Assembly (NCBI GenBank): GCA_964016885.1
Contig: OZ024746.1
Coordinates: 70,246,001-70,310,000, forward strand
Reading direction: 5' to 3'
Length of the DNA: 64,000 bases
Source of the DNA: Eledone cirrhosa
Taxonomy: Eukaryota
This document shows positions 8,279 to 46,419 of the stretch, piece by piece. The notes under the pieces are model-generated. The model did no database searches. It was given only the letters and a program-made list of their open reading frames with translations, and was not told where the DNA came from. Each line of letters opens with the position of its first letter. The stretch's first letter is position 1. The position numbers and the translations under genes are program-made.

Positions 8279-8689
8279 TCATGTCCTGCTTCTGTGTGGG
8301 ACGGGAATAAAAGAAGGCTCTGAAATAGTGAGAGCACTTTTGGGTGTGTAGATACCGACTTTAGCGGGAAATCTCTGGCCAGAAATATCAATTTCGTATT
8401 TAGCATTTTTGTCCAGAATATATTCATTAAGATTCTTCATGATAGATGGTTGATATTTGTCATCAAATTTAGAGACATAACCCAGACATAACATCTGCTC
8501 TAAAGTAAAACCATATCCACTTGATGTTGTTTCACCGACATACTCACCATTCCTATAGATTGGCTCTCCACCCCATGGCCAAATATCTGTATCAATATTG
8601 TGATCTTCAAGTAAGAAATGCACCAGTTTCTGTTTTACACCTTCCTTATGTTGTTGCAACAGAGCATCTTTTCCAATGAAGTCTCCTTT
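8279..8689 (-). CDS. PDPR: PDPR exon 17 (last coding exon)
   Basis: [13 protein letters not shown]...[26 protein letters not shown]...HRSRT*. Confidence 0.9.
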   Translation of the reverse strand, partial: KGDFIGKDALLQQHKEGVKQKLVHFLLEDHNIDTDIWPWGGEPIYRNGEYVGETTSSGYGFTLEQMLCLGYVSKFDDKYQPSIMKNLNEYILDKNAKYEIDISGQRFPAKVGIYTPKSALTISEPSFIPVPHRSRT

Positions 8690-10927
8690 CTGTGAAACAA
8701 AAAAGCAGCAAAACAATATCAGAACTAGAAGGTATAAGAAAAAAATTTTAAGTTCTCATCATCATATGTCCACTTTCCCTGGTTGGAAGGATTGCCACCA
8801 TCTGGGGAGTCAAGGAAGGGTTATCAAGGTCTAAAGAGTCACGTCTTACTTATGCATTCCATATTTGGCATGATTTTTACCACTGAATGCCCTTCCTAAT
8901 GTCAACCACTTTACAGAGTGTGTTGTGTGTATTTTATCATAACATCAGCACTACAACTTTACAGAGTGTGCTATGCGCATTTTATTTTCAATGAAATATA
9001 AATTAATTATTAAACTTAGAATAAGTACAAGGTATCCCTGCATGTTGTAAAGGGATGTATGGCCTTTACTATTGCTTTCTAACAATATAGTGACTAATTT
9101 ATCATCATCATCAACATTTCACATCAGTTTGTCTATACTGATATAGGTTAGACAGGTTGTCACAGCCAAAGTCAGTATTTAATTGGAGCTTCTGTCCTCA
9201 CAAGCAGGTTTCTGGCTAATGTCTGGCTTACATACATTCCAGTTTTAGCACGGTTTCTACAGCTGGTTACCCTTCTCATCGTTAACTAATTTACAAAGTG
9301 AATTGGGTGCATTTTATCATGGAACCAGAATTAGGGTGGTTGTCATGTCCTTGACACAATTAAGAGTCCTCCTGACCTTTTGTTTATATAAAAATATTTT
9401 TTAAAAACATGGTGTCATGACAAAAAGCACCCAGTCCACACTGTAAAGCAGTTTTGTAGGAGTCATGATAAAAAGTGCCCAGACCACATTGTAAAGTGGT
9501 CGTGTAGGTAACACGGCAAAAAGCACCCAGTACACACTGTAGATGTGGTTCACATTAGGAAGGGCAACCAGCCATAGAAACCAAGCCAAAATCAGTTCTG
9601 CATGAGCAAAACACAGTCCTCTGACCTGGTTTTCTTTCAACGGGACAGCACGTCCTACCCATGCTAGCGTGAAAAATGGACATTAAACAATAATGATGAT
9701 GATGGCAATGGAGGGATCCTGAGAAATAAGATTAATAGATAATTTCCTGATAAAAGGATACTGATCACATGTTAAAGTAGCATCATAATTTTTTGTAATA
9801 AACTTTTCTAAGATATGTTCCAAACACCATCTTAATGAGTAAGTTACTTATATTAATAAATCCCTCCAAATTTGTGTGTTTCATTAGAAAAGGTTGACAC
9901 ATCAGCTTCAGCAGCTATAGTTTATAGACTTGATATAATAATACTGTTAATATGAACAATGGTCTCAAATTTAGGCACAGGTCAACAATTTGAGTGGAGG
10001 GGAAAGTCAATTATATCAACCACAGTACTTGACTAGTATTATGTATGCGCTAGATTGGTAGAAGGTCGGACGCCATGCTTTGCAGCATAGAGTTACGGCC
10101 CTTTGGAGTCTGATTTCCAAATCCCACCGAGGTCAACTTTGCCTTTCATCCTTACAGGGTCGATAAAATAAAGTACCAGTAATGCACTGGGGTAATTGCT
10201 GGCCTTGTGCCTAATGTAGAAACAATTCTATCTTATTGACATTGAAAAGGTGAAAAGCAAACTTGACTTCAGTGGGATTTGAACTCTGAATGTAAAGAGC
10301 TGCAACTAAAAGCTGCTAAGTATTTTCTCTGATGTTCTAATGATTCTACCATTGTTAATATGAATAATGCTCACGCCATGCTTTCCAGCATAGTTACGTC
10401 CCTTTACGATCTGAGTTCAAATCCCGCCGAGGTTGACTTTGCCTTTCATCCTTACGGGGTCGATAAAATAAAGTACCAGTAATGCACTGGGGTAATTGCT
10501 GGCCTTGTGCCTAAAGTAGAAACAAATATTCTAGTTAACTTACATTAAACTTGACACGGAATTCTCGACCACATTCAAAAGGTGTAGTAATGGGAGTTAA
10601 ATCAACTCCCCAGCTTGCAAAAAATTTCTCTACTCTTAATTCTTTCATGCAATTGAAACCAACATTACGAATTCCATAGTCAACACCTGCACGTATTAAT
10701 GTATCATAAACATGGAGGGCATACTGAAAAGAGAAAAACAACCCAATTAAAATAAACTATATTCACTGCTCTACAATACATACAATACATTACATATTAA
10801 TAGATAACTCATTGATTTATTGAGTGAATAATTATTATTTTGTTTCTTCATCAAATAGCAATAAAGTTATGTTTGTGGTTCAGACAACATATGTTAAATG
10901 ATGATGATGATGGTGATGATACATATA

Positions 10928-16726: not shown

Positions 16727-16772
<46 letters not shown>

Positions 16773-19700
16773 GAGAGAATTGGGAGTGTGTAACACTCCA
16801 CTTATCAAATAGGCAGTATATGGTTAGCTCAATGTCAGAGGACAGAGCCGTAATACAATTAACAACAAAGAGCGCTTAGAACATAGGTATATCTTTAATT
16901 GCTAACAGTGTTTCGTCCACACTAGAAGTGGGACTCTTCAGAGCATAAAGAGTAAATACATAGTATACAAGCATTGACAAAGCCAAAACAGAAGAATATA
17001 TGTGGGGATACCATAAGTTGGGGGGAGTTTAAAGAGTAAAGTAAAAGGAGTAAAATAAGAAAAGAGTAAAATAAAAATAAAAATAAAAATAAAAATAAAA
17101 ATAAAAATAAAAATAAAAATAAAAATAAAAATAAAAAATAAGAAATGTTATCACTCACAGTTGGGCAGGGTTCCGTTAACATACAGCTACATACAAGTAT
17201 ACGTATAAGCATGAGCACCCGCATGCACCTACACACAAGCACCCGTATGCAACACATACAGTATACACTAATACAAATAACATATCATAGACGGATGGGC
17301 ACAAGTTAAGAGATAGAGATAGATAAAAAATAGATAAGAGGTAGATAAAAAATAGATAAAAAATAGATAAAAAATAGATCAAAAAGTAGATAAGAAATAG
17401 ATAAAAAATAGATAAAAGATAAAAAATAAAAAATAAAATAAAATAAAATAAAATATACACCAGAAGATAAATAAAACAATACACCAAAAAAAAGTGGAGT
17501 AAAATATACACCATAAAGGAAGGTGTGGGTAAAGATAAGACTGGCAAATGCATAAGCTATCAAGCTATGTTCAACAAGTAATATACGTACAATATATAAA
17601 ATATACAAAAATATATACGAAAATATATATAAAAAATATATATAAAAAACATATATAAAAGAGACGTATATACAAGGATATATATATACATATATACACA
17701 TATCAGTCCAAGTAATGCATATCTATAAAAATGTAACTAGGGGTAAAAAGATGTAATAACAGTAATCAAGATGGTAATTATTAGGGCATGTAATAATAAT
17801 ATTATTATAGAAATCCTAGGGTGACACTAGTGTTGACTCATGGTGATATATGGAATATATCAGGAGCACACGAACGCCTTAGGCGTTGCAGTTAGCCGCA
17901 GTTCAACAATAGAGTGTTCGAATGAGATTTTTTATGAGATTTTTTATGAGATTTTATGAGATTTTTTATGAGATTTTATGAGATTTTATGAGATTTTATG
18001 AGATTTTTTATGAGCTTTGGGGTAATACTAGTGAAGTCATTAGGTGGTTTTCTACGGATTGTAAGCGTGATTCGCTTAGGTTTATCCAATTTGATATTGA
18101 TGCTTATTATACATCTATATCTCCTATCATCCTCAATAAGGCCCTTATCCTAGCCATGCAGAGAGGGGTCATTACACGGCCACAGATAGATATCGTTCTC
18201 GCTGCACGTAAAACCATCATTATGTTTGAGGATAATTTATGGACGAGAAAAAACACACCGGATAATTTTGACATTACTATGGGGTCAAGTGATTCTGCTC
18301 AGGTCACCGACTTAGTTGGGCTCTACCTCCTTACTGAACTACATAGTAACTTCCCATTCCTTAGGGGTGGGTTGTACCATGATGATGCCCTACTCTCCAT
18401 AGATGCTAGCAAGTATAATATAGTGCGCATTAGGAAAAAGCTGTATAAATTCTTTAAAACCTTCAATCTGTCCATTACTATGGATATAAATGATAGGACT
18501 GTCAACTTCCTTGATGTTACATTGGACTTAGGTAACCATACGTACACACCGTACCATAAGCCTAATGAATTGCTGACTTATGTGAATACTAACTCCAACC
18601 ACCCTAAGTCGGTCATCAGTGGTATATTGAAGGGGGTCTCTAACAGAATAAGTTCACTCTCACATAGCGAAGAGGCGTTTAACTCGCAGGCTGATTATTA
18701 TAATGATGCCTTAGCTAGATCCGGCTTTAGGGACAAATTACATTATGCCCAGGGAAATAATAGTCCAAATAGTAGCTCTACCAGTGTTGTTATAACACAT
18801 AATATGTCCATTGGTAATAGAGGTGTTTCGAACATGAGGGTTTTGAATGCCGGTAAAATGCACCAACAGGGTACCAATGGACTAAGTAACAGTAACAGTA
18901 ACGGTAGGCCTCTTAGCTCCCCGCATAGATTAGGTGAACATAGTAACCTTAGCAATGGAATTAATAATAATAATAATGGTAATAATAATGGTAATAATAA
19001 TAATAGTGAAAATAAAAAGAATAGAAGAAGATTGAATACATATTTTAACCCCCCATTTAACTCCGAAGTGGCTACGAATATTCCTAGGGCCTTCTTCTCT
19101 GTGTTAGAAAGGAACTTCCCTCCTGGTAATAGGTACCATTCTATCCTCAATAAGAATGTGGTTAAACTCTCGTATTCTACAACCCAAAATCTGGCCTCTC
19201 ATCTAGCCAATACCAATAATAAGAAAATTAAGGAAGGCCTCGACACCTTACGCCTAGGGGAAAACATTGGAGTCGACAGAGGTAGCCTGAACACCCGTGG
19301 TCAGCAAGCTGGTGATCATTTAGATAATAGCATCACCAGAAATTGTAACTGTAGAAGGGCTTCGGGCTGCCCCCTGAATGGTTTCTGCCTTACTAGAAAC
19401 ATAGTTTATGCGTGTGATGTGGTAACTACTGCGTCCACTAAAACTTATATTGGATCAACTTCCACCCCTTTTAAAACCAGATTTAACTCTCACCAGTGTA
19501 CATTTAGACATAATAAACTGAAGAATTCTACCTCCTTGGCAGCGCACGTCCACAATTTAAAAAATGCACGAACACAGTACACCCTCACTTGGTGGCAAGT
19601 TGCTAAATCCCATCCATATACTCCTCATAATAGAGTATGTAACCTATGCCTTACGGAATCCCACTATTATATTTGCCAAGTGCTCCCTACTAAATAGAAA

Positions 19701-22700
19701 GTCAGAAATATTTTCCTCTTGCCCCCACCAGATATTAAGCTCTTTCTTTTACTTTAAGCCTATTAGCTAGCACTTTCAGAATTCTCCAGTTGGGTAATCT
19801 AGTGTAATTGTCTCCTATTGTTTGTCTTGTTTGTATATGTGTCTGTGTGTATATGTATGCCTGCATGTGAATATGGAATTTGGATATCGAGGTGTATACG
19901 TGAGTTGGTGTATATGTTAATAAGCACCCTCGTTCGGTACAGTGGATGTGACCCTTCCATACTTGCCCAGCCACCGTGTGTGTGTTTGTGCATTGGTGGG
20001 TCTATCCCAACGTGTATTGTATGGATTTGTACCTCTGTATGCTCATGAGTTGTGATGTAATACATCTATGTAGAGTGTGTACTGCGTTATAAGATGCACA
20101 ATTGATTATATTTAACCTGCCCCTCGCATTTTATCTTATTTTAGTTTATTTAAATTACCTTGTTGACTCGGAGTGAACCAATGGGCCTGTGCCTTTTAGT
20201 TTTTAGTTTTGCCCCTCGCATTTTATCTTATTTTAGTTTATTTAAATTACCTTGTTGACTCGGAGTGAACCAATGGGCCTGTGCCTTTTAGTTTTTAGTT
20301 TTGCCCCTCGCATTTTATCTTATTTTAGTTTATTTAAATTACCTTGTTGACTCGGAGTGAACCAATGGGCCTGTGCCTTTTAGTTTTTAGTTTTGCCCCT
20401 CGCATTTTATCTTATTTTAGTTTATTTAAATTACCTTGTTGACTTGGAGTGAACCAATGGGCCTGTGCCTTTTAGTTTTTAGTTTTGCCCCTCGCATTTT
20501 ATCTTATTTTAGTTTATTTAAATTACCTTGTTGACTCGGAGTGAACCAATGGGCCTGTGCCTTTTAGTTTTTAGTTTTGCCCCTCGCATTTTATCTTATT
20601 TTAGTTTATTTAAATTACCTTGTTGACTCGGAGTGAACCAATGGGCCTGTGCCTTTTAGTTTTTAGTTTTGCCCCTCGCATTTTATCTTATTTTAGTTTA
20701 TTTAAATTACCTTGTTGACTCGGAGTGAACCAATGGGCCTGTGCCTTTTAGTTTTTAGTTTTGCCCCTCGCATTTTATCTTATTTTAGTTTATTTAAATT
20801 ACCTTGTTGACTCGGAGTGAACCAATGGGCCTGTGCCTTTTAGTTTTTAGTTTTGCCCCTCGCATTTTATCTTATTTTAGTTTATTTAAATTACCTTGTT
20901 GACTCGGAGTGAACCAATGGGCCTGTGCCTTTTAGTTTTTAGTTTTGCCCCTCGCATTTTATCTTATTTTAGTTTATTTAAATTACCTTGTTGACTCGGA
21001 GTGAACCAATGGGCCTGTGCCTTTTAGTTTTTAGTTTTGCCCCTTGCATTTTATCTTATTTTAGTTTATTTAAATTACCTTGTTGACTCGGAGTGAACCA
21101 ATGGGCCTGTGCCTTTTAGTTTTTAGTTTTGCCCCTCGCATTTTATCTTATTTTAGTTTATTTAAATTACCTTGTTGACTCGGAGTGAACCAATGGGCCT
21201 GTGCCTTTTAGTTTTTAGTTTTTCCCCTCGCATTTTATCTTATTTTAGTTTATTTAAATTACCTTGTTGACTCGGAGTGAACCAATGGGCCTGTGCCTTT
21301 TAGTTTTTAGTTTTGCCCCTCGCATTTTATCTTATTTTAGTTTATTTAAATTACCTTGTTGACTCGGAGTGAACCAATGGGCCTGTGCCTTTTAGTTTTT
21401 AGTTTTGCCCCTCGCATTTTATCTTATTTTAGTTTATTTAAATTACCTTGTTGACTCGGAGTGAACCAATGGGCCTGTGCCCATATGGGACGGAGATTTA
21501 GCCAGTCACTGTGAGCTGACCTGTGCCATCTCGCCGTGGGCAGTAGATATGGAGTACATGTATGTGTTACCCTCCTATTCTGCGGTTCACAGTCTACATG
21601 CTGACTTTGGGGTGTTTCTGCCTGGTGTTGTATTTTTGGCATAGTTGGCCTTCCATAGATTGACGCTCTGTGTTATTCTCCCAAGAATAACGTCTTGGCC
21701 CCGATAGCCTTCCGTATTTATTAACGGTTTGTTTATACTTGAATCTGGTGACTACACGTGTGAATACGCATCTCATCATAAGGTTTTATTTTGAATATTA
21801 ATCGTGATTACTCTGGCTAATTTACTGTGAAACTACATTATCTGCGACCAGTGAGAGCAACTGTTATGGGTTTTTAACTTTTGTTAGCTGGGTAAGATAT
21901 TTTGTGTAATATATCCGCGTAGATTTGGGTGTCCGGTGCGGTGTGTGTGTGTGTGTGTATGTATATATTTATGTGTATATACGTGTATGTGTATATATAT
22001 ATATATATATACTGTCTCTGTATATATGTGTATGTATACTGTCTCTGTATATACATGTTTGTGTGTATGTGTGTATGTATAAGTATACATATACTGTCTC
22101 TGGACTAACCCTAATGTTGCGTACATTCTTGCGATGCCGGATTGTTGCTCAATGTTGTGATTTTGTGGTTATCGGCTTTGGAAGCTATTTGTTATGCACG
22201 TTGTTGAGTTTTCTTATATTAAATGGTATGCATAATAACCTGCTTCACCTGACTGTGTTTTACCACCTGCACTTGCCTGCTTCTGCTCACTAATATGCGC
22301 CTCAATTATTTGCCTCTTGATGTTCGTGCTGCTGTATATGAATTTGCCTGCAACCTTCCCAGCATATGCTCCTGCTTGTGATACGGATACACCTTGTTAA
22401 CCAATTAATTCTTGCCTGAGTGCTCAACTCTATGAATGCACATCTGTGTATTGAACTTTGGAGTGTGAACTTTTTGGGATTGCCCAACCGCTCAACTCTA
22501 TGAATGCACACCTGTGGATTGAACTTTGGAATGTGAACTTTTGGGACTGTCCAACCTGGGATGTTTCCATTGCATTGTAATGGTCCACTCAATCTAGGGC
22601 GGACATAGCATCTGTTCATAAAAAATCTCATTCGAACACTCTATTGTTGAACTGCGGCTAACTGCAACACCTAAGGCGTTCGTGTGCTCCTGATATATTC

Positions 22701-23657
22701 CATATATCACCATGAGTCAACACTAGTGTCACCCTAGGATTTCTATAATAATATTATTATTACATGCCCTAATAATTACCATCTTGATTACCCTTATTAC
22801 ATCTTTTTACCCCCAGTTACATTTTTATAGATATGCATTACTTGGACTGATATGTGTATATATGTATATATATATATATCCTTGTATATACGTCTCTTTT
22901 ATATATGTTTTTTATATATATTTTTTATATATATTTTCGTATATATTTTTGTATATTTTATATATTGTACGTATATCACTTGTTGAACATAGCTTGATAG
23001 CTTATGCATTTGCCAGTCTTATCTTTACCCACACCTTCCTTTATGGTGTATATTTTACTCCACTTTTTTTTGGTGTATTGTTTTATTTATCTTCTGGTGT
23101 ATATTTTACTTTACTTTATTTTATTTTATTTTTTATTTTTTATTTTTTATCTTTTATCTATTTTTTATCTATTTCTTATCTACTTTTTGATCTATTTTTT
23201 TATCTATTTTTTATCTACCTCTTATCTATTTTTTATCTAACTCTATCTCTTAACTTGTGCCCATCCGTCTATGATATGTTATTTGTATTAGTGTATACTG
23301 TATGTGTTGCATACGGGTGCTTGTGTGTAGGTGCATGCGGGTGCTCATGCTTATACGTATACTTGTATGTAGCTGTATTTTAACGGAACCCTGCCCAACT
23401 GTGAGTGATAACATTTCTTATTTTTCATTTTTATTTTTATTTTTATTTTACTCTTTTCTTATTTTACTCCTTTTACTTTACTCTTTAAACTCCTCCCAAC
23501 TTATGGTATCCCCACATATATTCTTCTGTTTTGGCTTTGTCAATGCTTGTATACTATGTATTTACTCTTTATGCTCTGAAGAGTCCCACTTCTAGTGTGG
23601 ACGAAACACTGTTAGCAATTAAAGATATACCTATGTTCTAAGCGCTCTTTGTTGTTA

Positions 23658-23693
<36 letters not shown>

Positions 23694-38600: not shown

Positions 38601-41600
38601 TTTTCAGAAAGATGTGAAAAACTGGTACTCCAGACAGAGTAAAAAGATAATGTTTGTGTATGTGGAGGGAGCAGGCATGTCAAGGCATGTCCCCTCTCAT
38701 CCCCCCCCCCCCCCCCCATCCTGTCAAATCCTTCCACATTTGACACCTGACCATGTTATACACCCCAGCCCTATCCATAGGGTAGAGCCAGCTCTTCAGT
38801 TGAGTCAATGACAACAACCTCTTTAGTGTCAGTGCTATGATGAATGCACCCAGTATACCTGATAGGGTGGTTGGTAATGGGAAGGGCACCGTGCTGTAAA
38901 AACCATGTCAAAAAGGGTTGAGGAGACACATTTGTTGTGCCATGGGTATGAAAACCTCTCTAGCGTTGGTGATGAGCACACCTAGTACACTCTGTAAAGT
39001 GGTTTGTGATAGAAAGGGCATCCAGCCATAGAAAACTTGCCAAACAAAGGGCCAGGAGGATTCTTCAGCTGTACCATAGACACAACATTCCTAATATTGG
39101 TAATCTATACAATAAACACACCTAGTGCACTCTGTAAAGTGGTTGGTGATAGGAAGGACATCCAGTTGCAGAAAATTTGCCATAGAACAAGTTGTAGACA
39201 TGACAACCTCCCTAGTGCTGGTGATAAACATGATAAACACACCCAATACACATTGTAAAGTACACTCATATTCACAGCCACACAAATATACTGATTAATA
39301 TATAAATAATTTGTGTTGATTTTTTTCATGTATTTGTTTGACTGAGAAACATTTTCACACAACCATATGAATACATTGGTACAGAGATCTTGCCAACAAC
39401 ATCCCATGTGTTGTCTTTGGAGTTATATACTTCTATCAGATCAGAATAAAGGTTTTCTTTAGATCCCCTACACCGGGCCCCAAATAAATAGATTTTCTCA
39501 TCAAGCACAGCCAAGCTAACAAAGTCCCGAGCACATCTCATTTCAGGGAGAATATCCCAGTTACCAGTCAGTGGTGTGTAACGAAACACACCCTCAAGCC
39601 TCACCACATATATCTGAGAGTTCAATACCACAGCACTGAGGCACATGTCATTTGCAGGAAGACCATTTTTTAAGATACTACAAGTATTTGTTGTTGTATC
39701 ATAACATTGAACAGTATTTGTCACGACCTCATCATTATTTTTTCCCCCAAAGAGATAGATGTATTTCCCATAGGCAACATAACCCATATTTTCTACAGCA
39801 AACAATAGTTTCCCCATGCTTGTCCATTTATTTGAAGAAGTGTCCCACATTTCTACAGTGTTTAGAACACATTCCTCATCAAATCCTCCCAAGACATAAA
39901 TGTTGTTATCAACGACAGCAATTGCATGTCGTCTTTGAGCTTGTAACATATTGTTTCCTCTTATCCAAGAATGGAATGTGAGATCATATTTCCATAATTC
40001 TGGACTTCTCAGACCACCAGATACATAAAACTCATTACCAACCACTGCAGCAGCATACTCATTTCCTTTTTTAAAAGGAAGTGGTTTCAAAGAAACAAAT
40101 TCTTTTGTATCTGGTCTGTAAAACTCGACATCACTACTGAGACCATCAGCTACTCTGCCACCAAGGAGTACAGCAACTTCCGTGTAAGAGAAAGCATAGC
40201 GAGGTGTAATCTGATAAGCTTGTCGTGAAGAAACAGTATGGAATGAGATTGCATCTTCTATCATTTCCTGACCCTTTTCACAAGACAAATGATTGGATTT
40301 GATGACATAATCCAGCAAGTAGCTCTGTCCAATCAATGGAAACTTCACACATGTCATCATTTGGTAACGGAAAGATTTTCTGTGTTCAATGTCATATTCA
40401 TGCGTTTCTTCCATTCCAGAAGAAAACATTGATTTGAAGTAATAAGAGCCTGCTGCCAAGATGGCTCGATGGCAAGGAAATTTCTTGTCTTCAAGAATTA
40501 TAGTAACATCAGTGTAATTAGCATTCATACAAAATGATTCAATATTAGCTCTAAGAGAATCTGAATGTTGAGAGCTGAAATAGAACATTCCTTGTGAGAA
40601 AGTGTCTTCCTCTACACTGCTGTTCTGGTTTGCCATGATTGAATAACTGTTATTATGGAACTATGTCAGTTATTAGAGATATCAATAAGAGGAATTATTT
40701 TAAGTTTGTTCACCAAGTCGCTAAGTGATATAATATCACATCATTTGGTCCTATACATAAACTGTAGGAAGAACATTCAGTTGTAGAAAACCTTCCAAAT
40801 ATAGACTTGGGAAGACTCTTCAGCTATGTCAAAGACATGACATCTTCCCTAGTGTTGATGCCATGATAAAATGCACTCGGTAGAGCATGAGTTTGTATGT
40901 CAGGCTCCTAGGCCTACCTTGAATACTAACCAGTCTGTGATGGTGTATGCAACCCTTGCTAGCAGGGAACACAGACATTAAATAATGATGATGTCTTGTT
41001 ATTTATCAGCATTATTGATAAATAAGATCTCTATGTATCTGGTTTAGAATAGGCCCACCATAATGTTGCATCCCTTGAAAGGCAACTGAAAGGGTTTGTT
41101 GCTAGAATGAGCATCTGACAGTAGTGTCTAGAATTGAAATACCACAAGAGAAATTTTTTAAAACCAATTGCCTGGATAATTTCAGTTGGTAGAGTATTTT
41201 CAACTCACTATCTTATATATATGTGGCCCCTGTGAAGCCAGAAATAGTCCTCACTCATCTTCTATTCACACACAACCACATTTGCCTTGAAAGAACAGAG
41301 TAGAGAGGACTGGGTAGTCTTGATTAAGGCAACCCTTCTAGTTCTAATGCAGAGAAGAGGGAACAACACACAAACTCTCAATTGCTGGAACAAAAAAAAA
41401 GGTAATATGTTTTAACAAGTGAAGGCATGTAGCCTAATGGTTGGGCTCATAATCATATAGTCATGGGTTTCATTGCTGTGCACTGTGTGGTGCATTTTGT
41501 TCTTGAGCAAGATGTTTCACTTTACATTTCTCCAGTCAACTCAACTGAAAAAATGAGTACCAACAACAACTAAGGTTAAACTCTGCAATGGGCAGGTGTC

Positions 41601-44420
41601 TTGTGGATAAAACCAGCAAGCTGAGTTGATTCAATAATTTCTATATCTCTGTCCCCTAAAAAGTGAACTTGTGTCTTAGTAGAAATAAATTACTAGACTA
41701 AATCATATTTTCATTTGTATCTTATATCTGTAAGGTAGTCAGTCATGCTGGTGACATGACAAAAAGCATCCAGTCCACACTGTAAAGTGGTCATGTTGGT
41801 GACATGACAAAAAGTGCCAAGTTCACCCTGTAAGGTGGTCATTTTGGTGCCACAATAAAAAGCACCCAGTCCACACAGTAACGTGGTTGGTGTTAGGAAG
41901 GGAATCCAGGTGTAAAAACCAAGCCAAATTACAGATATGTATGAGCAAGATGTGATCTCTGGACCTTACTTGTCTAACCCATGCAAGTATGGAAAATAGA
42001 TGTTAAATGATGATGATGCTGATAATCTTGGCCCAGATTTCATATTTCAATACCACTTAGATGTACTAGTAAATTTTTGTAGCAGCCACTGGGTGTCTAG
42101 ATGAATGATGTAACCCTTTTCTTACCATACTTCTAACAAAAGACATTGCCTATAATTTTCAAGTTTTTAAGAATTAGAGAGGGTTTAATAATATAATTAA
42201 CTTGCTCGTGATTAAACTGTTGTTGGAAGCATAACTTAACAAAGGTGCTTACATAGAATTATGGTAGAAAGTATTTTAGATGAATATAAACATTTTATCC
42301 CTTTTGACATGCTGTAAACTGGTTAGTGATAGGAAGGGCATCCAACCATAGTAAGCTTTCCAAACAAAGGTTTGGGAGGACCCTTCAGTTGTGTCAAAAA
42401 CATGACAACTTCTCCTGTGGAACTGTATGTAAGTAAGATGCAAACCTCTAGCCTGTCTGGGAAGTTAGTAGCCCTGCTTCTGTACTGATCGGTCTATGAA
42501 GACCCATTCAACCCTAGCTTGTAGAGAAAGTGATTGTTAAACAAAAGAATACAGGAAAGCATGTAAGCAAGATGTATCCCTTATCCCATCTGAGGGGGCA
42601 GTAGCTCCAATTTAGAACTGATTTGGTCTCTGATGACCTACTCAGCTGGTTTACATAGCACAAAGAGAAGATGAAAGCAAAAGGTCAACCAATGTCCTGC
42701 AATGCAAAGATTGGAGGTGTTAGGTGGTCCACATTGCAAAGCAGTGTGTCAATGTGAATCAAGGTAATACTGGGGAAAATTGTGTTGGAATGACACTGCT
42801 GCACTTAGTCTGGTTATTACCTGGTCAAAGAAGCCATCAGGGATGTGAAAAAGGATAAAGCTGTTGGAATTTCAGAAATATTTGCTTAGATGCTAAAATC
42901 ATGTGGTGAAGTAGGGCCCAAGCTAATTACTTGCATAATTAACCAGGTAATATGTGATGGTGCTATACTCAATGACTGGTATAGTAGTATAATCATTAAT
43001 TGTTACAAAGGAAAAAGTAATGCTCTAGAAAGTAGTAGCTAAAGAGGCATAATATTGAGGAATCAGATGCAATGTGCCAGTATTGATTGAGATGTGATGC
43101 ATATGGAGGATGACAGCTGCATAAAGTGCAGGGCTCACAAAGTGAATGGAAACTGTGGAAGAGGAAGACCTAGGAAAACATGGGTCAACATTGTGATGTT
43201 TGACCTCAAGAAGCGATATCTCACAATGGAGATGATAAAGGAATGTGATGACTGACAATGCAGTGCTGGAGAAAATTTACTTTCCTATACAAACAGAAGG
43301 AAGCAAGCATTTAAAGGACGGTAGTGTGGAGGCTGTTAGGCAGAGGCATAACTAGAGTATGGCAAGCATGGTATGTGCCATGGGCGTCACTTGGACTAGG
43401 AGCACATTCTATTAAAATCAAATAAGCCTTATCGGAGATTGGAAAAATAAACTCCTTCAAATGTATGATCTGTTTCTGATTATCATGGGTGAGAACACTA
43501 TGGTGGCTGGATCATTAAACCATTTATATAAATTATTAGACCCATAGGTAAACATACAGTGCTGGGCAGAGGCGCTATTTTCCCAAGTTATGCCTCAGCC
43601 TTGTAGGTAGATCTTGATTTCTTTCTTTTATTCCTTCTTTTCTGAATCACTCACGTTCCCCATATAATTAGGGCAGCTTGGGATCTGCCAAACACCTGTT
43701 ATTCTCTGTTGCTGCCCACATATAGAGAGATTCCTTATGGATCTATCTTTCCACCACGACCGACCCTTATCAGTTGCCAATAACATCCTGTCTTTAAGGC
43801 CACTTCTAGCAACACTTATTCTCTGTCTCACTTGGCAAGAAACATACAGCCAACATATACATACGTGGGTGTGTGTGCGAGAACAATAAAATACACATAC
43901 TGAGACATTTGATTAGAGGTGAACTAAAGGTGAAACAAGTTGATGTTAAAGGGATCATAGTGAGGACAAGAAAAATTAGTGAATTGTGTGTGTACAAACA
44001 GCTGAGCAAGAGAGAAGGGGTGGAGCAAAGAAAATAAATATTGTCAACATACCTTCCTTGCTCGAGCACCACCACATCTGTCCATCCCCGTTGACTGAGA
44101 TGGTAGGCAATCGACAAACCGACAATACCACCACCACATATCACCACCCTTGCTTGTTCGGGTACCTGTACTGTAGTTGAAGATGTTGCCGTTGATGACT
44201 GTGCTGCTGATGATGATGATAATGACGACGACGGTGATGATGATGATGGTGTTAGCGAGGATATAGATGAAAAACATCGACTGAATCCATGAAGACAGTG
44301 TCTGTTCTGAGTACCAGCTATATCACCGGTGGGGATCAGCGACGAGTAACAGGTTTTCCTTTTTAAGCAAGCGTATCGTAGTTTCCGTAGGGTCGGTTGG
44401 ACAAGTTTAAGGGGTTTCAT
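8279..44420 (-). CDS. PDPR: Pyruvate dehydrogenase phosphatase regulatory subunit-like (GcvT/DMGDH/SARDH family flavoprotein), 17 coding exons, 2787 nt / 928 aa
   Basis: Exons 44053-44420, 36268-36398, 34600-34681, 32732-32813, 31489-31570, 27848-27969, 26880-26994, 26111-26263, 25570-25694, 16355-16547, 15602-15757, 14635-14774, 13758-13906, 13342-13549, 11853-11942, 10544-10723 and 8279-8689 all have GT-AG introns with matching phases. Motifs: [10 protein letters not shown] (FAD binding), [23 protein letters not shown] and [14 protein letters not shown]; the last two are PDPR-type. Confidence 0.9.
10544..10723 (-). CDS. PDPR: PDPR exon 16
   Basis: [22 protein letters not shown]...[11 protein letters not shown]...[14 protein letters not shown]; cag / gtaagt. 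Confidence 0.9.
11853..11942 (-). CDS. PDPR: PDPR exon 15
   Basis: [30 protein letters not shown]; aag acceptor / gtaaga. Confidence 0.88.
11990..12965 (-). mobile_element. Degenerate LINE (RTE-like) RT fragment
   Basis: [16 protein letters not shown]...PWELPYADV; ends in the same 3' tail as the 1170 copy. Confidence 0.7.
12970..13105. repeat. 30-bp minisatellite, ~4.5 copies
   Basis: cataggttgcatggctgtataccctctata units. Confidence 0.9.
13342..13549 (-). CDS. PDPR: PDPR exon 14
   Basis: [50 protein letters not shown]...FMTCK; cag / gtaaat. Confidence 0.9.
13758..13906 (-). CDS. PDPR: PDPR exon 13
   Basis: [19 protein letters not shown]...[19 protein letters not shown]; cag / gtaaga. Confidence 0.9.
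14635..14774 (-). CDS. PDPR: PDPR exon 12
   Basis: [47 protein letters not shown]; aag acceptor / gtaaat. Confidence 0.85.
15602..15757 (-). CDS. PDPR: PDPR exon 11
   Basis: GHLYAIGY...[31 protein letters not shown]; cag / gtgagt. Confidence 0.9.
16355..16547 (-). CDS. PDPR: PDPR exon 10
   Basis: [22 protein letters not shown]...[15 protein letters not shown]; cag / gttagt. Confidence 0.9.
16853..17937 (-). repeat. Left inverted repeat (inverted pseudo-LTR) of the PLE
   Basis: Reverse complement of 22616-23664 with only a handful of substitutions plus microsatellite length differences; produces mirror-image spurious ORFs in the track. Confidence 0.95.
16893..16950 (-). ncRNA. Minimal type I hammerhead ribozyme (copy in the inverted arm, sense to PDPR pre-mRNA)
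   Basis: Exact reverse complement of 23567-23624. Confidence 0.8.
17922..18014 (+). repeat. (ATGAGATTTT[T][T])n run, ~8 units, at the PLE inversion junction
   Basis: Read directly; the unit occurs only once in the right arm (22616-22631). Confidence 0.9.
17988..19770 (+). pseudogene. PLE polyprotein: reverse transcriptase, Asn-rich linker, CxCx5C zinc motif and GIY-YIG endonuclease; N-terminally truncated, frameshift near 19660
   Basis: [101 protein letters not shown]; the expected tail ([14 protein letters not shown]) lies in another frame (ORF 19564-19770). Confidence 0.9.
20119..21481. repeat. 92-bp tandem array, ~14.8 copies, inside the PLE 3' region
   Basis: Units start at 20119, 20211, 20303 ... 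21407; only three variant positions seen (units 4, 11 and 13); no spacers. Confidence 0.97.
22422..22548. repeat. 68-bp direct duplication in the PLE 3' region
   Basis: gctcaactctatgaatgcaca...gaactttgga.tgtgaacttttt at 22422 and 22490. Confidence 0.85.
22616..23664 (+). repeat. Right arm (3' pseudo-LTR) of the PLE
   Basis: Pairs with 16853-17937. Confidence 0.95.
23567..23624 (+). ncRNA. Minimal type I hammerhead ribozyme in the PLE pseudo-LTR
   Basis: ctttatgct-CTGAAGA-gtcccac-ttcta-gtgtggac-GAAAC-act-GTT^agca-at-taaag; stem I tgct/agca and cttta/taaag, stem II, short stem III. Confidence 0.8.
23705..23755 (-). ncRNA. Hammerhead-like motif (CAGAAGA core), solo PLE tail abutting the large element
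   Basis: 23689-23768 is a diverged reverse complement of ~29602-29685. Confidence 0.5.
25570..25694 (-). CDS. PDPR: PDPR exon 9
   Basis: [11 protein letters not shown]...[21 protein letters not shown]; cag / gtgagc. Confidence 0.9.
26111..26263 (-). CDS. PDPR: PDPR exon 8
   Basis: [25 protein letters not shown]...LLPEDWDHF; tag / gtaaga. Confidence 0.9.
26880..26994 (-). CDS. PDPR: PDPR exon 7
   Basis: [38 protein letters not shown]; tag / gtgtgt. Confidence 0.9.
27848..27969 (-). CDS. PDPR: PDPR exon 6
   Basis: GVKIFEG...[14 protein letters not shown]; tag / gtgagt. Confidence 0.9.
28030..28236. repeat. ~207-bp near-perfect fold-back (hairpin) element
   Basis: gaaattagaaatagaagctttcgccgta...gatgagt[acgtcaat]actcatc...tacggcgaaagcttctatttctaatttc. 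Confidence 0.9.
28936..29690 (+). mobile_element. Second, 5'-truncated Naiad-type PLE: GIY-YIG remnant (28936-29289, one in-frame TGA), 3' region and hammerhead-like motif
   Basis: Hand translation [71 protein letters not shown] parallels the C-terminus of the 17988 ORF; not in the ORF track. Confidence 0.8.
29617..29667 (+). ncRNA. Hammerhead-like motif with variant core CAGAAGA
   Basis: agttt-CAGAAGA-t-ccc-gttaa-ggg-t-GAAA-gc...gc-TT^aaact; second copy on the minus strand at 23705-23755. Confidence 0.55.
29767..30125 (+). mobile_element. Composite tRNA-derived SINE; near-identical inverted copy at ~4735-5070
   Basis: ggaggcacatggcttagtggttagagc (A box), gagttcaattc (B box), ccttgagcaagacact core. 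Confidence 0.75.
31489..31570 (-). CDS. PDPR: PDPR exon 5
   Basis: [27 protein letters not shown]; cag / gtcagt. Confidence 0.9.
32732..32813 (-). CDS. PDPR: PDPR exon 4
   Basis: [27 protein letters not shown]; cag / gtaacc. Confidence 0.88.
33025..33810. repeat. Diverged ~48-bp tandem array (~16 units) within an interspersed repeat
   Basis: attttattgtgacaccagcactaccactttacag unit; shorter arrays at 27600-27810, 9410-9540 and 41745-41880. Confidence 0.85.
34600..34681 (-). CDS. PDPR: PDPR exon 3
   Basis: (G)[26 protein letters not shown]; cag / gtaatt. Confidence 0.88.
35000..35760. mobile_element. Degenerate LINE fragments (RT N-terminal part on minus, 3' tail on plus)
   Basis: [14 protein letters not shown]...[20 protein letters not shown]; the tail is related to 45995-46180 and 58330-58560. 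Confidence 0.6.
36268..36398 (-). CDS. PDPR: PDPR exon 2
   Basis: cag|G TTA GGC TGT GGT ACA AGT TGG CAT GCT GCA GGT = (R)[15 protein letters not shown]; donor gttagt. Confidence 0.9.
39326..40636 (-). CDS. Intronless BTB-kelch (KLHL-like) ORF with in-frame deletion of the BTB C-terminal half and most of BACK; retrocopy or duplicate, possibly a pseudogene
   Basis: [37 protein letters not shown] (BTB start) jumps to EYDIEHRK...VKFPLI (BACK end), then kelch blades LLGG, YVSGG, YVLGG, YLFGG, YVVRL, YLFGA. Confidence 0.8.
   Translation of the reverse strand: MANQNSSVEEDTFSQGMFYFSSQHSDSLRANIESFCMNANYTDVTIILEDKKFPCHRAILAAGSYYFKSMFSSGMEETHEYDIEHRKSFRYQMMTCVKFPLIGQSYLLDYVIKSNHLSCEKGQEMIEDAISFHTVSSRQAYQITPRYAFSYTEVAVLLGGRVADGLSSDVEFYRPDTKEFVSLKPLPFKKGNEYAAAVVGNEFYVSGGLRSPELWKYDLTFHSWIRGNNMLQAQRRHAIAVVDNNIYVLGGFDEECVLNTVEMWDTSSNKWTSMGKLLFAVENMGYVAYGKYIYLFGGKNNDEVVTNTVQCYDTTTNTCSILKNGLPANDMCLSAVVLNSQIYVVRLEGVFRYTPLTGNWDILPEMRCARDFVSLAVLDEKIYLFGARCRGSKENLYSDLIEVYNSKDNTWDVVGKISVPMYSYGCVKMFLSQTNT
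42480..43290 (+). mobile_element. Highly degenerate LINE fragment
   Basis: ggaaactgtggaagaggaagacctaggaaaacatgg (GRGRPRKTW) and other RTE-like remnants. Confidence 0.5.
44053..44420 (-). CDS. PDPR: PDPR exon 1: basic, Ser-rich mitochondrial presequence plus GxGxxG FAD motif
   Basis: [15 protein letters not shown]...[20 protein letters not shown]...VVVLEQG; donor AG|GTATGT. Confidence 0.85.
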
Positions 44421-46419
44421 ATTGATGACGATCTTACTACTATCAACAATAATTTGCAGGGAACACAATTATTACAACCAAACAGAAAATCAATTTAACG
44501 CTACTGTCTGGAATGACTACTGTGATCAACAACGAAGATTTTTACCACGAATTTTTGATAATTTAATATATGTATGCACATAAATATTTTTTACACATTG
44601 CTCATATAAATATGTGTATATATGTATCTGAAATTGGTATTAATTTGACTCAGGAATGTATTCTATAAAGACCGTAATTGTAATTAGTGTTTAGTCGGGA
44701 ACTTTTATGTTAATATCATGTGATGATAATAACTATAATAAAAACAATGAAAACGTTTGCTATAGCCAACCTAATAATTCGTGAATAAATCGAATACTTC
44801 GTTAAATATTGAACCAGAATAATAATTAAGTCAATCAATGGGAAAAATATATTCCAAATGAAAACTTCCAGATGATATATATGTGTGTGTTGCTTGTAGT
44901 CGTATTACTACATTTTCATGGAACACATTAGCGTATTTCTCCTGTAGTTTCACTCTACTGTTTGATGTTGTTGTTGTGTTTGCTATTTATACGGGTGCCT
45001 CGACTCGTGTTTATAAGTTGTCCTATCACAGCTGTTGTTGTGGTTGTTAGCTGCCATCTTCGAATGTCAAGGAGGTTATTTAAACTAATTTTGAAGTACT
45101 CGACGGGTAGATAACTCACATAATATCCATACACATATAAACAGGGCTGATGTAAAAATAAAACAAAAACCTCAAACTTTCTATCTTTCTCCCCCCCACC
45201 CGTTTGACACTATTTCTATTTTTAATCGTCTCTTGATGGCATTCTTATTTGCATTTTCAATATCTACAGAAGGTGAACATGTGCAGAAATATCTAATTGA
45301 TAAACACCCTTTCAAAAATAGAATATTTTATATTAAATACTCATGTTCTTCGAGCGAGTCCTTTTATAAGCCAGTACTATGGGGTTCCTTGAGTATTGTT
45401 TCCTTTTTTCTTTAAATATACGCAAATGCTGATATTGTAACGTCATAGCTACATTAAATACAGCTGATACGAGGTAGAGCTGAATTCAATCGGTGTTGAG
45501 GGAATTTACTTATCCTATAATAAAATTTCCATTAGGTTTATTATTTCTTAAGTGTATTTATTTATCTCTTTCGCTAGAAATATATAAAACTATCAACTAA
45601 TGTGTATTTAGTTTTTAAATATCAGTTCTTTTTTTCAAAAGTGAATTAAATACACTGGCAAATATTTATTTCGGTTCAACTCATTCTTTTCACTCCTTTC
45701 TACGCAGTCTCAACAGCGTGTTTAATAGCACCAAAATGCAGACATATATATTTCAAGAAAACAAACACAATATTTAAAGAGATATTAGACCAGCCTAACC
45801 TCTGACTCCATTCTCTCCACAATAACATACCAGAACACAAAACAGAGCACTTCCCTTACAGGTATTACTCAAACTATTAATAAAACTACAGACAAAATAA
45901 CAACTACATCTGTACGAGGCGTGTGACTTAGTGATTGGGTTGTGAAACCCTGGAAATTAGTAGTCTCTTCTTCTTCTTCTTCTTCTTCGCCCACTTATTC
46001 CTGGGAGAGCCGTAAAAGCAGAGTCCTCAAATACAAAGCGGGTCCTGTCAGAAGCAACCGTCTCCAATTGATCCGGCTGGATCCCCAAACGAGATCAGCC
46101 GAGCTCATGGATGTTATCCAGCCGCTTGGTTTTGCCCGTAAAACCTGTCCAGCGATTCTTTCCTGAGACATTCTAATCACATGCTCTCCTACATAAAAAA
46201 AAGAATCTTTTACTGAGTTACCTATTCTACCGACTTTAATACTTGATTAGAAAACACGCTATAACACATTATCATTGGTATACAGCTAGAGGTGAATGAC
46301 ATCCAAACTACCTTATGGCTGAGCGAGATATACGAGTATATCATCTCATCGCGATCGTAGGGACTGAGAATGATGCTGCTGCACCTTTACACGGAATCGA
46401 GCTATGGACGATGGTCATC

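What the first reader, a model, noticed from the sequence alone, without database searches (positions are those of the whole stretch)
17922..18014. Telomerase-like reiterated (ATGAGATTTT)n at the template-switch junction
Seen: exactly where the inverted arm stops matching (17937) and the truncated RT begins ([11 protein letters not shown], ~18018), the last 10-12 nt of the arm are repeated ~8 times with variable T-run length; the right arm has one copy. The run supplies the ORF's ATG. Known: PLE RTs are the closest retroelement relatives of telomerase RT. Inference: a footprint of repeated realign-and-extend synthesis during joining of the two cDNA ends.
Basis: partly seen in the sequence, partly recalled or inferred. 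Interest (0 to 1): 0.7.

Follow-up and report, generated by a model that had tools for sequence, protein, structure and literature searches.

The report
Stuttered repeat at Penelope element joint
A real, one-off 8-copy short repeat sits where the two back-to-back halves of a jumping gene were joined, and it is likely a scar of DNA-repair-type copying and slippage rather than proof that the element's enzyme acts like telomerase.

Summary
The array is real. It has eight ATGAGA-T(6 or 4) units at 17922-18014, occurs once in the genome, and is present in short-read contigs. It fills the head-to-head joint of a Hydra-clade Penelope-like element as 73 extra bases. The arm's native end, ATGA-GATTTTTT-ATGA, has the A-B-A' layout that lets any polymerase re-prime.

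Of 66 clean joints in this family, 40 of the 45 without an insert show microhomology, and 6 of 10 long inserts copy the flanks (one as a snap-back). Only this joint reaches three or more copies. So junction duplications are enriched (about 30-fold, rough), but reiteration is not a family habit.

Against RNA-templated, telomerase-like addition: T-runs are only 6 or 4; 4 of 5 other direct copies lack realignment pairing; the same copy carries a 92-bp x15 array with a filler absent from sister copies; and the element's own 6-11-mers change length between sister arms with no substitutions. Most likely: end-joining templated insertion (Pol theta type), then slippage. RT repeat addition is not excluded (about 15%). 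The scan noted templated Penelope joints before at another locus of this genome.

The parts
16729..16769 (.). (AT)n target microsatellite, left side
16770..17937 (-). Inverted arm: 3' part of the element, including the about 86-nt tail (16770-16852) that the right end lacks
17922..17937 (+). Native arm end with A-B-A' layout (ATGA, GATTTTTT, ATGA)
17938..18010 (+). 73-nt junction insert; with its borders it forms the 8-unit array (T-runs 6,6,4,6,4,4,4,6)
18011..18014 (+). TGAG shared by the repeat unit and the truncated RT copy (microhomology)
18011..19697 (+). 5'-truncated Hydra-clade RT plus GIY-YIG coding region; chance in-frame ATG at 17988
20118..21481 (+). 92-bp x14.8 array private to this copy: 76 nt of element plus a 16-nt filler (TTTTAGT x2.3); 3 singleton substitutions in 1364 nt
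22616..22631 (+). Source of the repeat unit in the main copy, element sense (TCAT-AAAAAATC-TCAT)
22616..23664 (+). 3' part of the main copy matching the inverted arm; ends at the short end
23576..23607 (+). Hammerhead core (CUGAAGA, stem II, GAAAC), read by eye; no Rfam hammerhead hit
23662..23688 (.). (TA)n target microsatellite, right side

Best explanation
The array is a 73-base copy-and-repeat insert at the head-to-head joint of a Penelope-like element, likely made when a host end-joining polymerase (Pol theta type) used one cDNA end as template for the other, and likely lengthened by slippage on the array itself. Inferred order: both target ends prime a cDNA, one from each of two staggered starts. 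The long cDNA's end pairs by 3-4 bases with the other cDNA's terminal ATGA, copies 12 bases and lets go. Because the template is A-B-A', the new end fits the same ATGA again. One 2-base slip in the T-run makes the 10-mer, which later rounds copy. Shown: array, borders, uniqueness, family-wide joint spectrum. Inferred: two cDNAs, direction of copying, the enzyme, the timing of each unit.
For: Microhomology of 1 nt or more at 40 of 45 insert-free joints (20 expected), 3 nt or more at 16 of 45 (2.6 expected). Six of 10 long inserts beat nearly all shuffles (0-1 of 300), including one inverted snap-back (L105) that needs a DNA template. Five of 5 other direct copies have 1-4 nt pairing at the border facing the other arm. 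These match published Pol theta scars (PMC5068794; PMC2895639; PMC4912351; passages). The genome has an A-family polymerase exon whose best PDB hits are Pol theta. T6/T4-only needs one slip if the array copies itself, four identical slips if a fixed RNA is re-read. The 92-bp array has a filler absent from 14 of 14 subfamily copies, so it was amplified from a non-native template. Sister arms with 0 of 350 substitutions differ by 20-83 nt in their 6- and 11-mer tracts.
Against: The final joint of a trans-copied insert should usually show microhomology, yet 4 of 5 lack it at that border (about 0.03 by my hand calculation). Seven in-register rounds is long for one repair event. Pol theta presence shows capacity only. 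Tract-length differences between arms could arise during reverse transcription. Microhomology counts lean upward because the furthest end supported by three loci was taken. 15 of 81 joints were dropped by eye and 17 candidate rows skipped as low-complexity.
Confidence: 0.5

Rival explanations
1. The PLE RT itself switches onto the partner cDNA's 3' end and stutters there as a DNA-dependent polymerase; no host polymerase is needed.
For: PAc RT extends both target strands, starts without homology and is predicted to be a dimer (PMC11167929). R2 RTs jump templates (PMC11371274). 51 of 56 one-long-one-short ends suggest coordinated synthesis.
Against: No PLE RT activity of this kind appears in the parts I read. 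It gives the same sequence outcome as the best explanation, so nothing here selects it. It does not explain the 92-bp array.
Confidence: 0.2
2. Telomerase-like repeat addition: the RT re-reads the A-B-A' stretch of its own RNA (22616-22631) seven times at a break or barrier, then joins through TGAG.
For: A-B-A' layout as in telomerase and DRT10 (PMC12632851). 4-nt pairing at both borders. A predicted stem ends 10 nt 5' of the site. 9 of 141 mapped cDNA stops fall in this 100-nt bin against 3 in each neighbouring bin.
Against: 1 of 66 joints. L086 stops 2 nt away with no repeat. The stem is not significant (z -1.3), and the stop cluster is about 0.1 after correction (hand calculation). T-runs never 5 or 7. 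4 of 5 other direct copies have no pairing where realignment must prime. 4.6% of positions have such an A-B-A' layout. The Hydra clade lacks the telomerase-shared IFD (PMC8557442 section 11).
Confidence: 0.15
3. The joint was a plain 3-4 nt microhomology join that happened to create an imperfect 12-nt tandem (ATGAG twice), and all extra units came from later replication slippage.
For: A plain join gives an 8-of-9 match one period on. The element's 11-mer tract ranges 98-700 nt across 72 arms. A 3-copy 22-mer arose far from any joint (L204).
Against: New duplications in non-repetitive element body are rare (about 7 of 10 nt or more in 187 kb, by eye) against 5 at 66 joints, so a seed made at joining is far likelier.
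Confidence: 0.1
4. Assembly or long-read artefact.
For: No contig piece spans the whole array, and the supporting sample may be the assembly's own.
Against: Six short contigs in X7 and five listed in X8 match array words of both unit types exactly, at depth 7-22.
Confidence: 0.02

Closest known systems
Templated insertions of polymerase theta-mediated end joining (PMC5068794, PMC2895639, PMC4912351; passages read)
   Same: 1-4 nt microhomology, flank-copied inserts under 25 nt, snap-back inserts, reiterated priming, multi-copy imperfect repeats.
   Different: Here the ends are inferred retroelement cDNAs; eight nearly perfect in-register units; enzyme untested.
EN+ Penelope-like elements, Hydra clade (PMC8557442 passages and section 11)
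   Same: RWR, DKT, CxCx5C, CxxC and CxH motifs, hammerhead core, (TA)n target, inverted 5'-truncated arm, one-sided tail.
   Different: Unit about 5.3 kb with a long AT-rich 3' region, not under 3 kb; tail about 86 nt, not 30-40; reiterated joints not mentioned in the passages read.
PAc Poseidon element in vitro (PMC11167929, parts 1-2 of 4)
   Same: Two staggered ends define the tail; both target strands are extended.
   Different: Different clade; the part read does not describe the head-to-head joint or repeat addition.
Telomerase and DRT10 repeat addition (PMC12632851, passages)
   Same: A-B-A' template logic; unit equals A-B.
   Different: They use a dedicated template with a boundary element and repeat every time; here one chance site, no proven boundary, 1 of 66 joints.
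LINE-1 twin priming and R2 snap-back junctions (PMC11371274, PMC13526784; passages)
   Same: Inverted pieces and short microhomology or inserts at cDNA ends.
   Different: The PLE layout duplicates the 3' end on both sides with one long and one short start.

Membership tests
Hydra-clade EN+ PLE | Single ORF, RT then C-terminal GIY-YIG endonuclease | tested here: met
   831-aa open frame in sister copy L042, 95% identical over the shared part. Pfam finds nothing on it directly; 5 of 34 aligned relatives hit GIY-YIG and 1 hits RVT_1; the profile hits a retron RT at E 0.016.
Hydra-clade EN+ PLE | RWK and DKT motifs; CxCx5C linker; CxxC and CxH near the C-terminus | tested here: met
   [20 protein letters not shown] and CPH read against section 11.
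Hydra-clade EN+ PLE | Canonical hammerhead in the terminal repeat | tested here: inconclusive
   Core and stem II by eye and fold; no Rfam hammerhead match; cleavage untested.
Hydra-clade EN+ PLE | Insertion in (TA)n; inverted arm; one-sided tail | tested here: met
Hydra-clade EN+ PLE | Placement in the clade by RT phylogeny | not tested
   No named Hydra references were fetched; assignment rests on motifs.
Telomerase-type repeat addition | A-B-A' template | tested here: met
   22616-22631, but 4.6% of positions have one.
Telomerase-type repeat addition | Template boundary 5' of the template | tested here: inconclusive
   Predicted stem ends 10 nt away, z -1.3; weak cluster of stops.
Telomerase-type repeat addition | Recurrent repeat synthesis from the same template | tested here: not met
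   Array junction unique; 1 of 66 joints; L086 stops 2 nt away without repeats.
Telomerase-type repeat addition | RNA-templated synthesis by the RT | not testable with these tools
   Needs purified enzyme.
Pol theta-mediated end-joining scar | Excess short microhomology at simple joints | tested here: met
   40 of 45 against 20 expected.
Pol theta-mediated end-joining scar | Flank-templated inserts, direct and snap-back | tested here: met
   6 of 10 long inserts at 0-1 of 300 shuffles, one more at 11 of 300, three not templated.
Pol theta-mediated end-joining scar | Microhomology where the extended end is resolved | tested here: inconclusive
   Present here (4 nt) and in L114; absent in 4 of 5 other direct copies.
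Pol theta-mediated end-joining scar | Genetic dependence on POLQ | not testable with these tools
   A POLQ-like exon exists; dependence untested.

The most novel reading that the evidence does not exclude
A Penelope-like RT performed telomerase-style repeat addition in vivo, re-reading a chance A-B-A' stretch of its own RNA seven times before its cDNA was joined; repeat addition would then be a latent ability of telomerase's closest mobile relatives.
Probability: 0.15. Interest if true: 0.75.

Novelty: new variant of a known kind. Interest (0 to 1): 0.33.

Why it matters
How Penelope elements make their inverted layout is still open (PMC8557442, passages). The survey gives testable numbers: one long and one short end in 51 of 56 insertions, short microhomology at most joints, and flank-copied inserts at about one joint in ten. 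Together they point to two cDNAs closed by end joining. The single array adds a ready 16-nt substrate for asking whether a PLE RT or Pol theta can reiterate. On its own it is most likely an unusual repair scar with no function.

Tried and rejected
Array inherited from the source element: rejected. Functional start codon: rejected; chance frame, truncated and out-of-frame ORF. Template boundary: fold not significant, stop cluster weak. Length polymorphism: the 2-base gap in an X9 contig is what a collapsed assembly graph would give, so it is not counted; RAD runs X10-X12 have no depth inside the array and say nothing. Pfam, PDB and Rfam on single sequences named neither RT nor hammerhead. Apparent long inserts at L038, L052, L062, L073, L084, L085, L091, L097, L117, L123, L130, L131, L151, L207 and L230 were dropped as lying in native repeats or palindromes; L117 and L123 could be multi-copy inserts, which would raise the count from 1 to at most 3 of 81. 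Three joints (L105, L145, L232) were re-set by hand. Paper searches (listings only) showed no title on reiterated PLE joints; subscription papers and supplements were not seen. PMC13580325 gave one unhelpful passage. No structure prediction or tree was run.

Full report
OBSERVATION. The window shows ATGAGA followed by T-runs of 6,6,4,6,4,4,4,6 and a final ATGAG at 17922-18014 (TRF). The left arm matches the reverse complement of 22616-23664 up to 17937, where the right arm goes on with other sequence. Of 29 other copies found with the RT start, 28 have native sequence upstream of TGAGC and one is truncated further in; none has the array. Element sequence therefore resumes at 18011 and 73 bases are extra. 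The arm-to-array junction word occurs once in the genome. Short-read contigs of runs X7 and X8 tile 17936-18013 exactly, though none spans it and the sample may be the assembly's own.

THE ELEMENT. A sister copy has an 831-aa open frame, 95% identical over the shared part, with RWR, DKT, CxCx5C, CxxC and CxH motifs. These are the marks of the Hydra clade, which also inserts in (TA)n, carries a hammerhead and lacks the IFD (PMC8557442 section 11). Both flanks are (TA)n. Domain libraries are weak on it: nothing on single proteins, GIY-YIG in 5 of 34 aligned sequences. I built no tree. The left arm runs about 86 nt further than the right end; this tail is element sequence. Among 58 inverted insertions, 51 have one long and one short end, 4 long-long, 1 short-short and 2 were unscorable. 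This fits two cDNAs begun at two staggered starts, as shown in vitro for PAc (PMC11167929, parts 1-2 of 4). The two-cDNA reading is inference; self-priming on an antisense template has also been proposed (PMC3846280, passages).

JOINT SURVEY. Three hammerhead-region patterns gave 214, 73 and 122 matches, of which 100, 73 and 100 were listed. I fetched 120 regions. From 140 candidate rows, 17 were skipped as low-complexity and duplicates removed, leaving 81 joints. I dropped 15 by eye and re-set 3, leaving 66: 45 without insert, 11 with 1-4 nt, 10 with 5 nt or more. Microhomology of at least 1, 2, 3, 4 nt was seen in 40, 23, 16, 8 of 45 against 20, 7.7, 2.6, 0.8 expected from random joins; the method leans slightly upward. 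Of the 10 long inserts, five are direct flank copies at 0 of 300 shuffles (L019, L020, L114, L183, this one), one is a snap-back (L105, 1 of 300), one is borderline (L081, 11 of 300) and three are not traceable. Only this joint has three or more copies. L086 ends 2 nt from the same site with a 1-nt insert.

BACKGROUND. In 187 kb of high-complexity element sequence I count by eye about 7 private tandem duplications of 10 nt or more, two of them within 50 nt of a joint, against 5 at 66 joints: roughly 30-fold enrichment. Multi-copy growth is common elsewhere in the element. The native 11-mer tract spans 98-700 nt over 72 arms, and sister arms with 0 of 350 substitutions differ by 20-83 nt (L031, L221). 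L204 has a 3-copy 22-mer far from its joint. This very copy carries a 92-bp x14.8 array found nowhere else, made of 76 nt of element plus a filler that is itself 2.3 copies of a nearby 7-mer and is absent from 14 of 14 subfamily copies. Its 3 singleton substitutions in 1364 nt (0.22%) are close to the 0.29% private rate of the adjacent coding part, so it may be as old as the insertion.

MECHANISM. The arm ends in ATGA-GATTTTTT-ATGA and the RT copy begins with TGAG, so either end can re-prime after 12 bases. This A-B-A' logic is that of telomerase and DRT10 (PMC12632851, passages), but it serves any polymerase, and 4.6% of element positions have it. Four things weigh against re-reading a fixed RNA. 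T-runs are only 6 or 4, which needs one slip if the array is its own template and four identical slips otherwise. Four of five other direct copies have no pairing at the border where self-realignment must prime, while all five have 1-4 nt at the border facing the other arm. A snap-back insert shows DNA-templated extension of these ends. No boundary is shown: the predicted stem ends 10 nt away with z -1.3, and 9 of 141 stops in that bin against 3 next door is weak. The spectrum matches Pol theta scars: priming by one base, inserts under 25 nt, reiterated priming (PMC5068794), multi-copy imperfect repeats (PMC2895639), copying in cis and trans (PMC4912351), all read as passages. A POLQ-like exon is in the genome. 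Against my reading: those same four inserts lack microhomology where a trans-extended end should be resolved, seven in-register rounds is many, and a PLE RT switching onto the partner cDNA would leave the same trace. I give 0.5 to host end joining with later self-copying, 0.2 to RT on the partner DNA, 0.15 to RT on RNA, 0.1 to pure later slippage, 0.02 to artefact.

THE ATG. It is in frame at 17988, but 10-nt units supply an ATG in every frame. The product lacks about 245 N-terminal residues and departs from the intact frame near the C-terminus. No function is implied.

NOVELTY. It works like A-B-A' realignment but fails the recurrence test for telomerase-type addition. The inverted layout and tail are known. 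Seven paper searches (listings only) showed no report of reiterated PLE joints; subscription papers and supplements were not seen. Earlier scan notes on this genome mention templated PLE joints and Hydra-group start sites; I did not check their loci. Verdict: a real, rare variant of a known repair-type scar; the family survey is worth more than the single array.

Noticed in passing
window 20118-21481: 92-bp x14.8 array private to this copy, with a 16-nt filler that reiterates a nearby 7-mer; singleton substitutions suggest one burst near insertion time, possibly rolling-circle-like copying.
   Followed up: partly
58 inverted insertions, L031-L221 and window: 51 of 56 scorable insertions pair one long and one short end, far from the half expected if each arm chose its start freely; suggests coordinated synthesis of the two cDNAs.
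   Followed up: partly
L086:1944 onward; L031; L221; L235: The element's native 6- and 11-mer tracts differ by up to several hundred bases between the two arms of one insertion with 0-2 substitutions; RT slippage versus later slippage is unresolved.
   Followed up: partly
L129:1514-1620; L114:3273-3360: Second tandem duplications (25 and 19 nt) within 50 nt of the inverted joint; L129 also jumps from RT to endonuclease sequence there.
   Followed up: no
L082:470-5220: A 2.57-kb block that includes the inverted joint stands twice in tandem.
   Followed up: no
L073, L117, L119, L130, L131, L151, L207: Near-symmetric fold-back joints where both arms stop within a few bases of the same element position.
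   Followed up: no
window 8279-44468, minus strand: The insertion likely lies in an intron of an FAD oxidoreductase gene (DAO exon 43806-44468, GCV_T_C exon 8279-8755); a BTB-kelch ORF at 39326-40660 is nested in the same span.
   Followed up: partly
L042, L045, L050: Three subfamilies each retain open frames of 826-831 aa, so the family was active recently.
   Followed up: no
L173-L178 (G000:C12:17.04-17.44 Mb): Six tail matches spaced at multiples of about 60 kb, likely one insertion carried in a large tandem segmental repeat.
   Followed up: no
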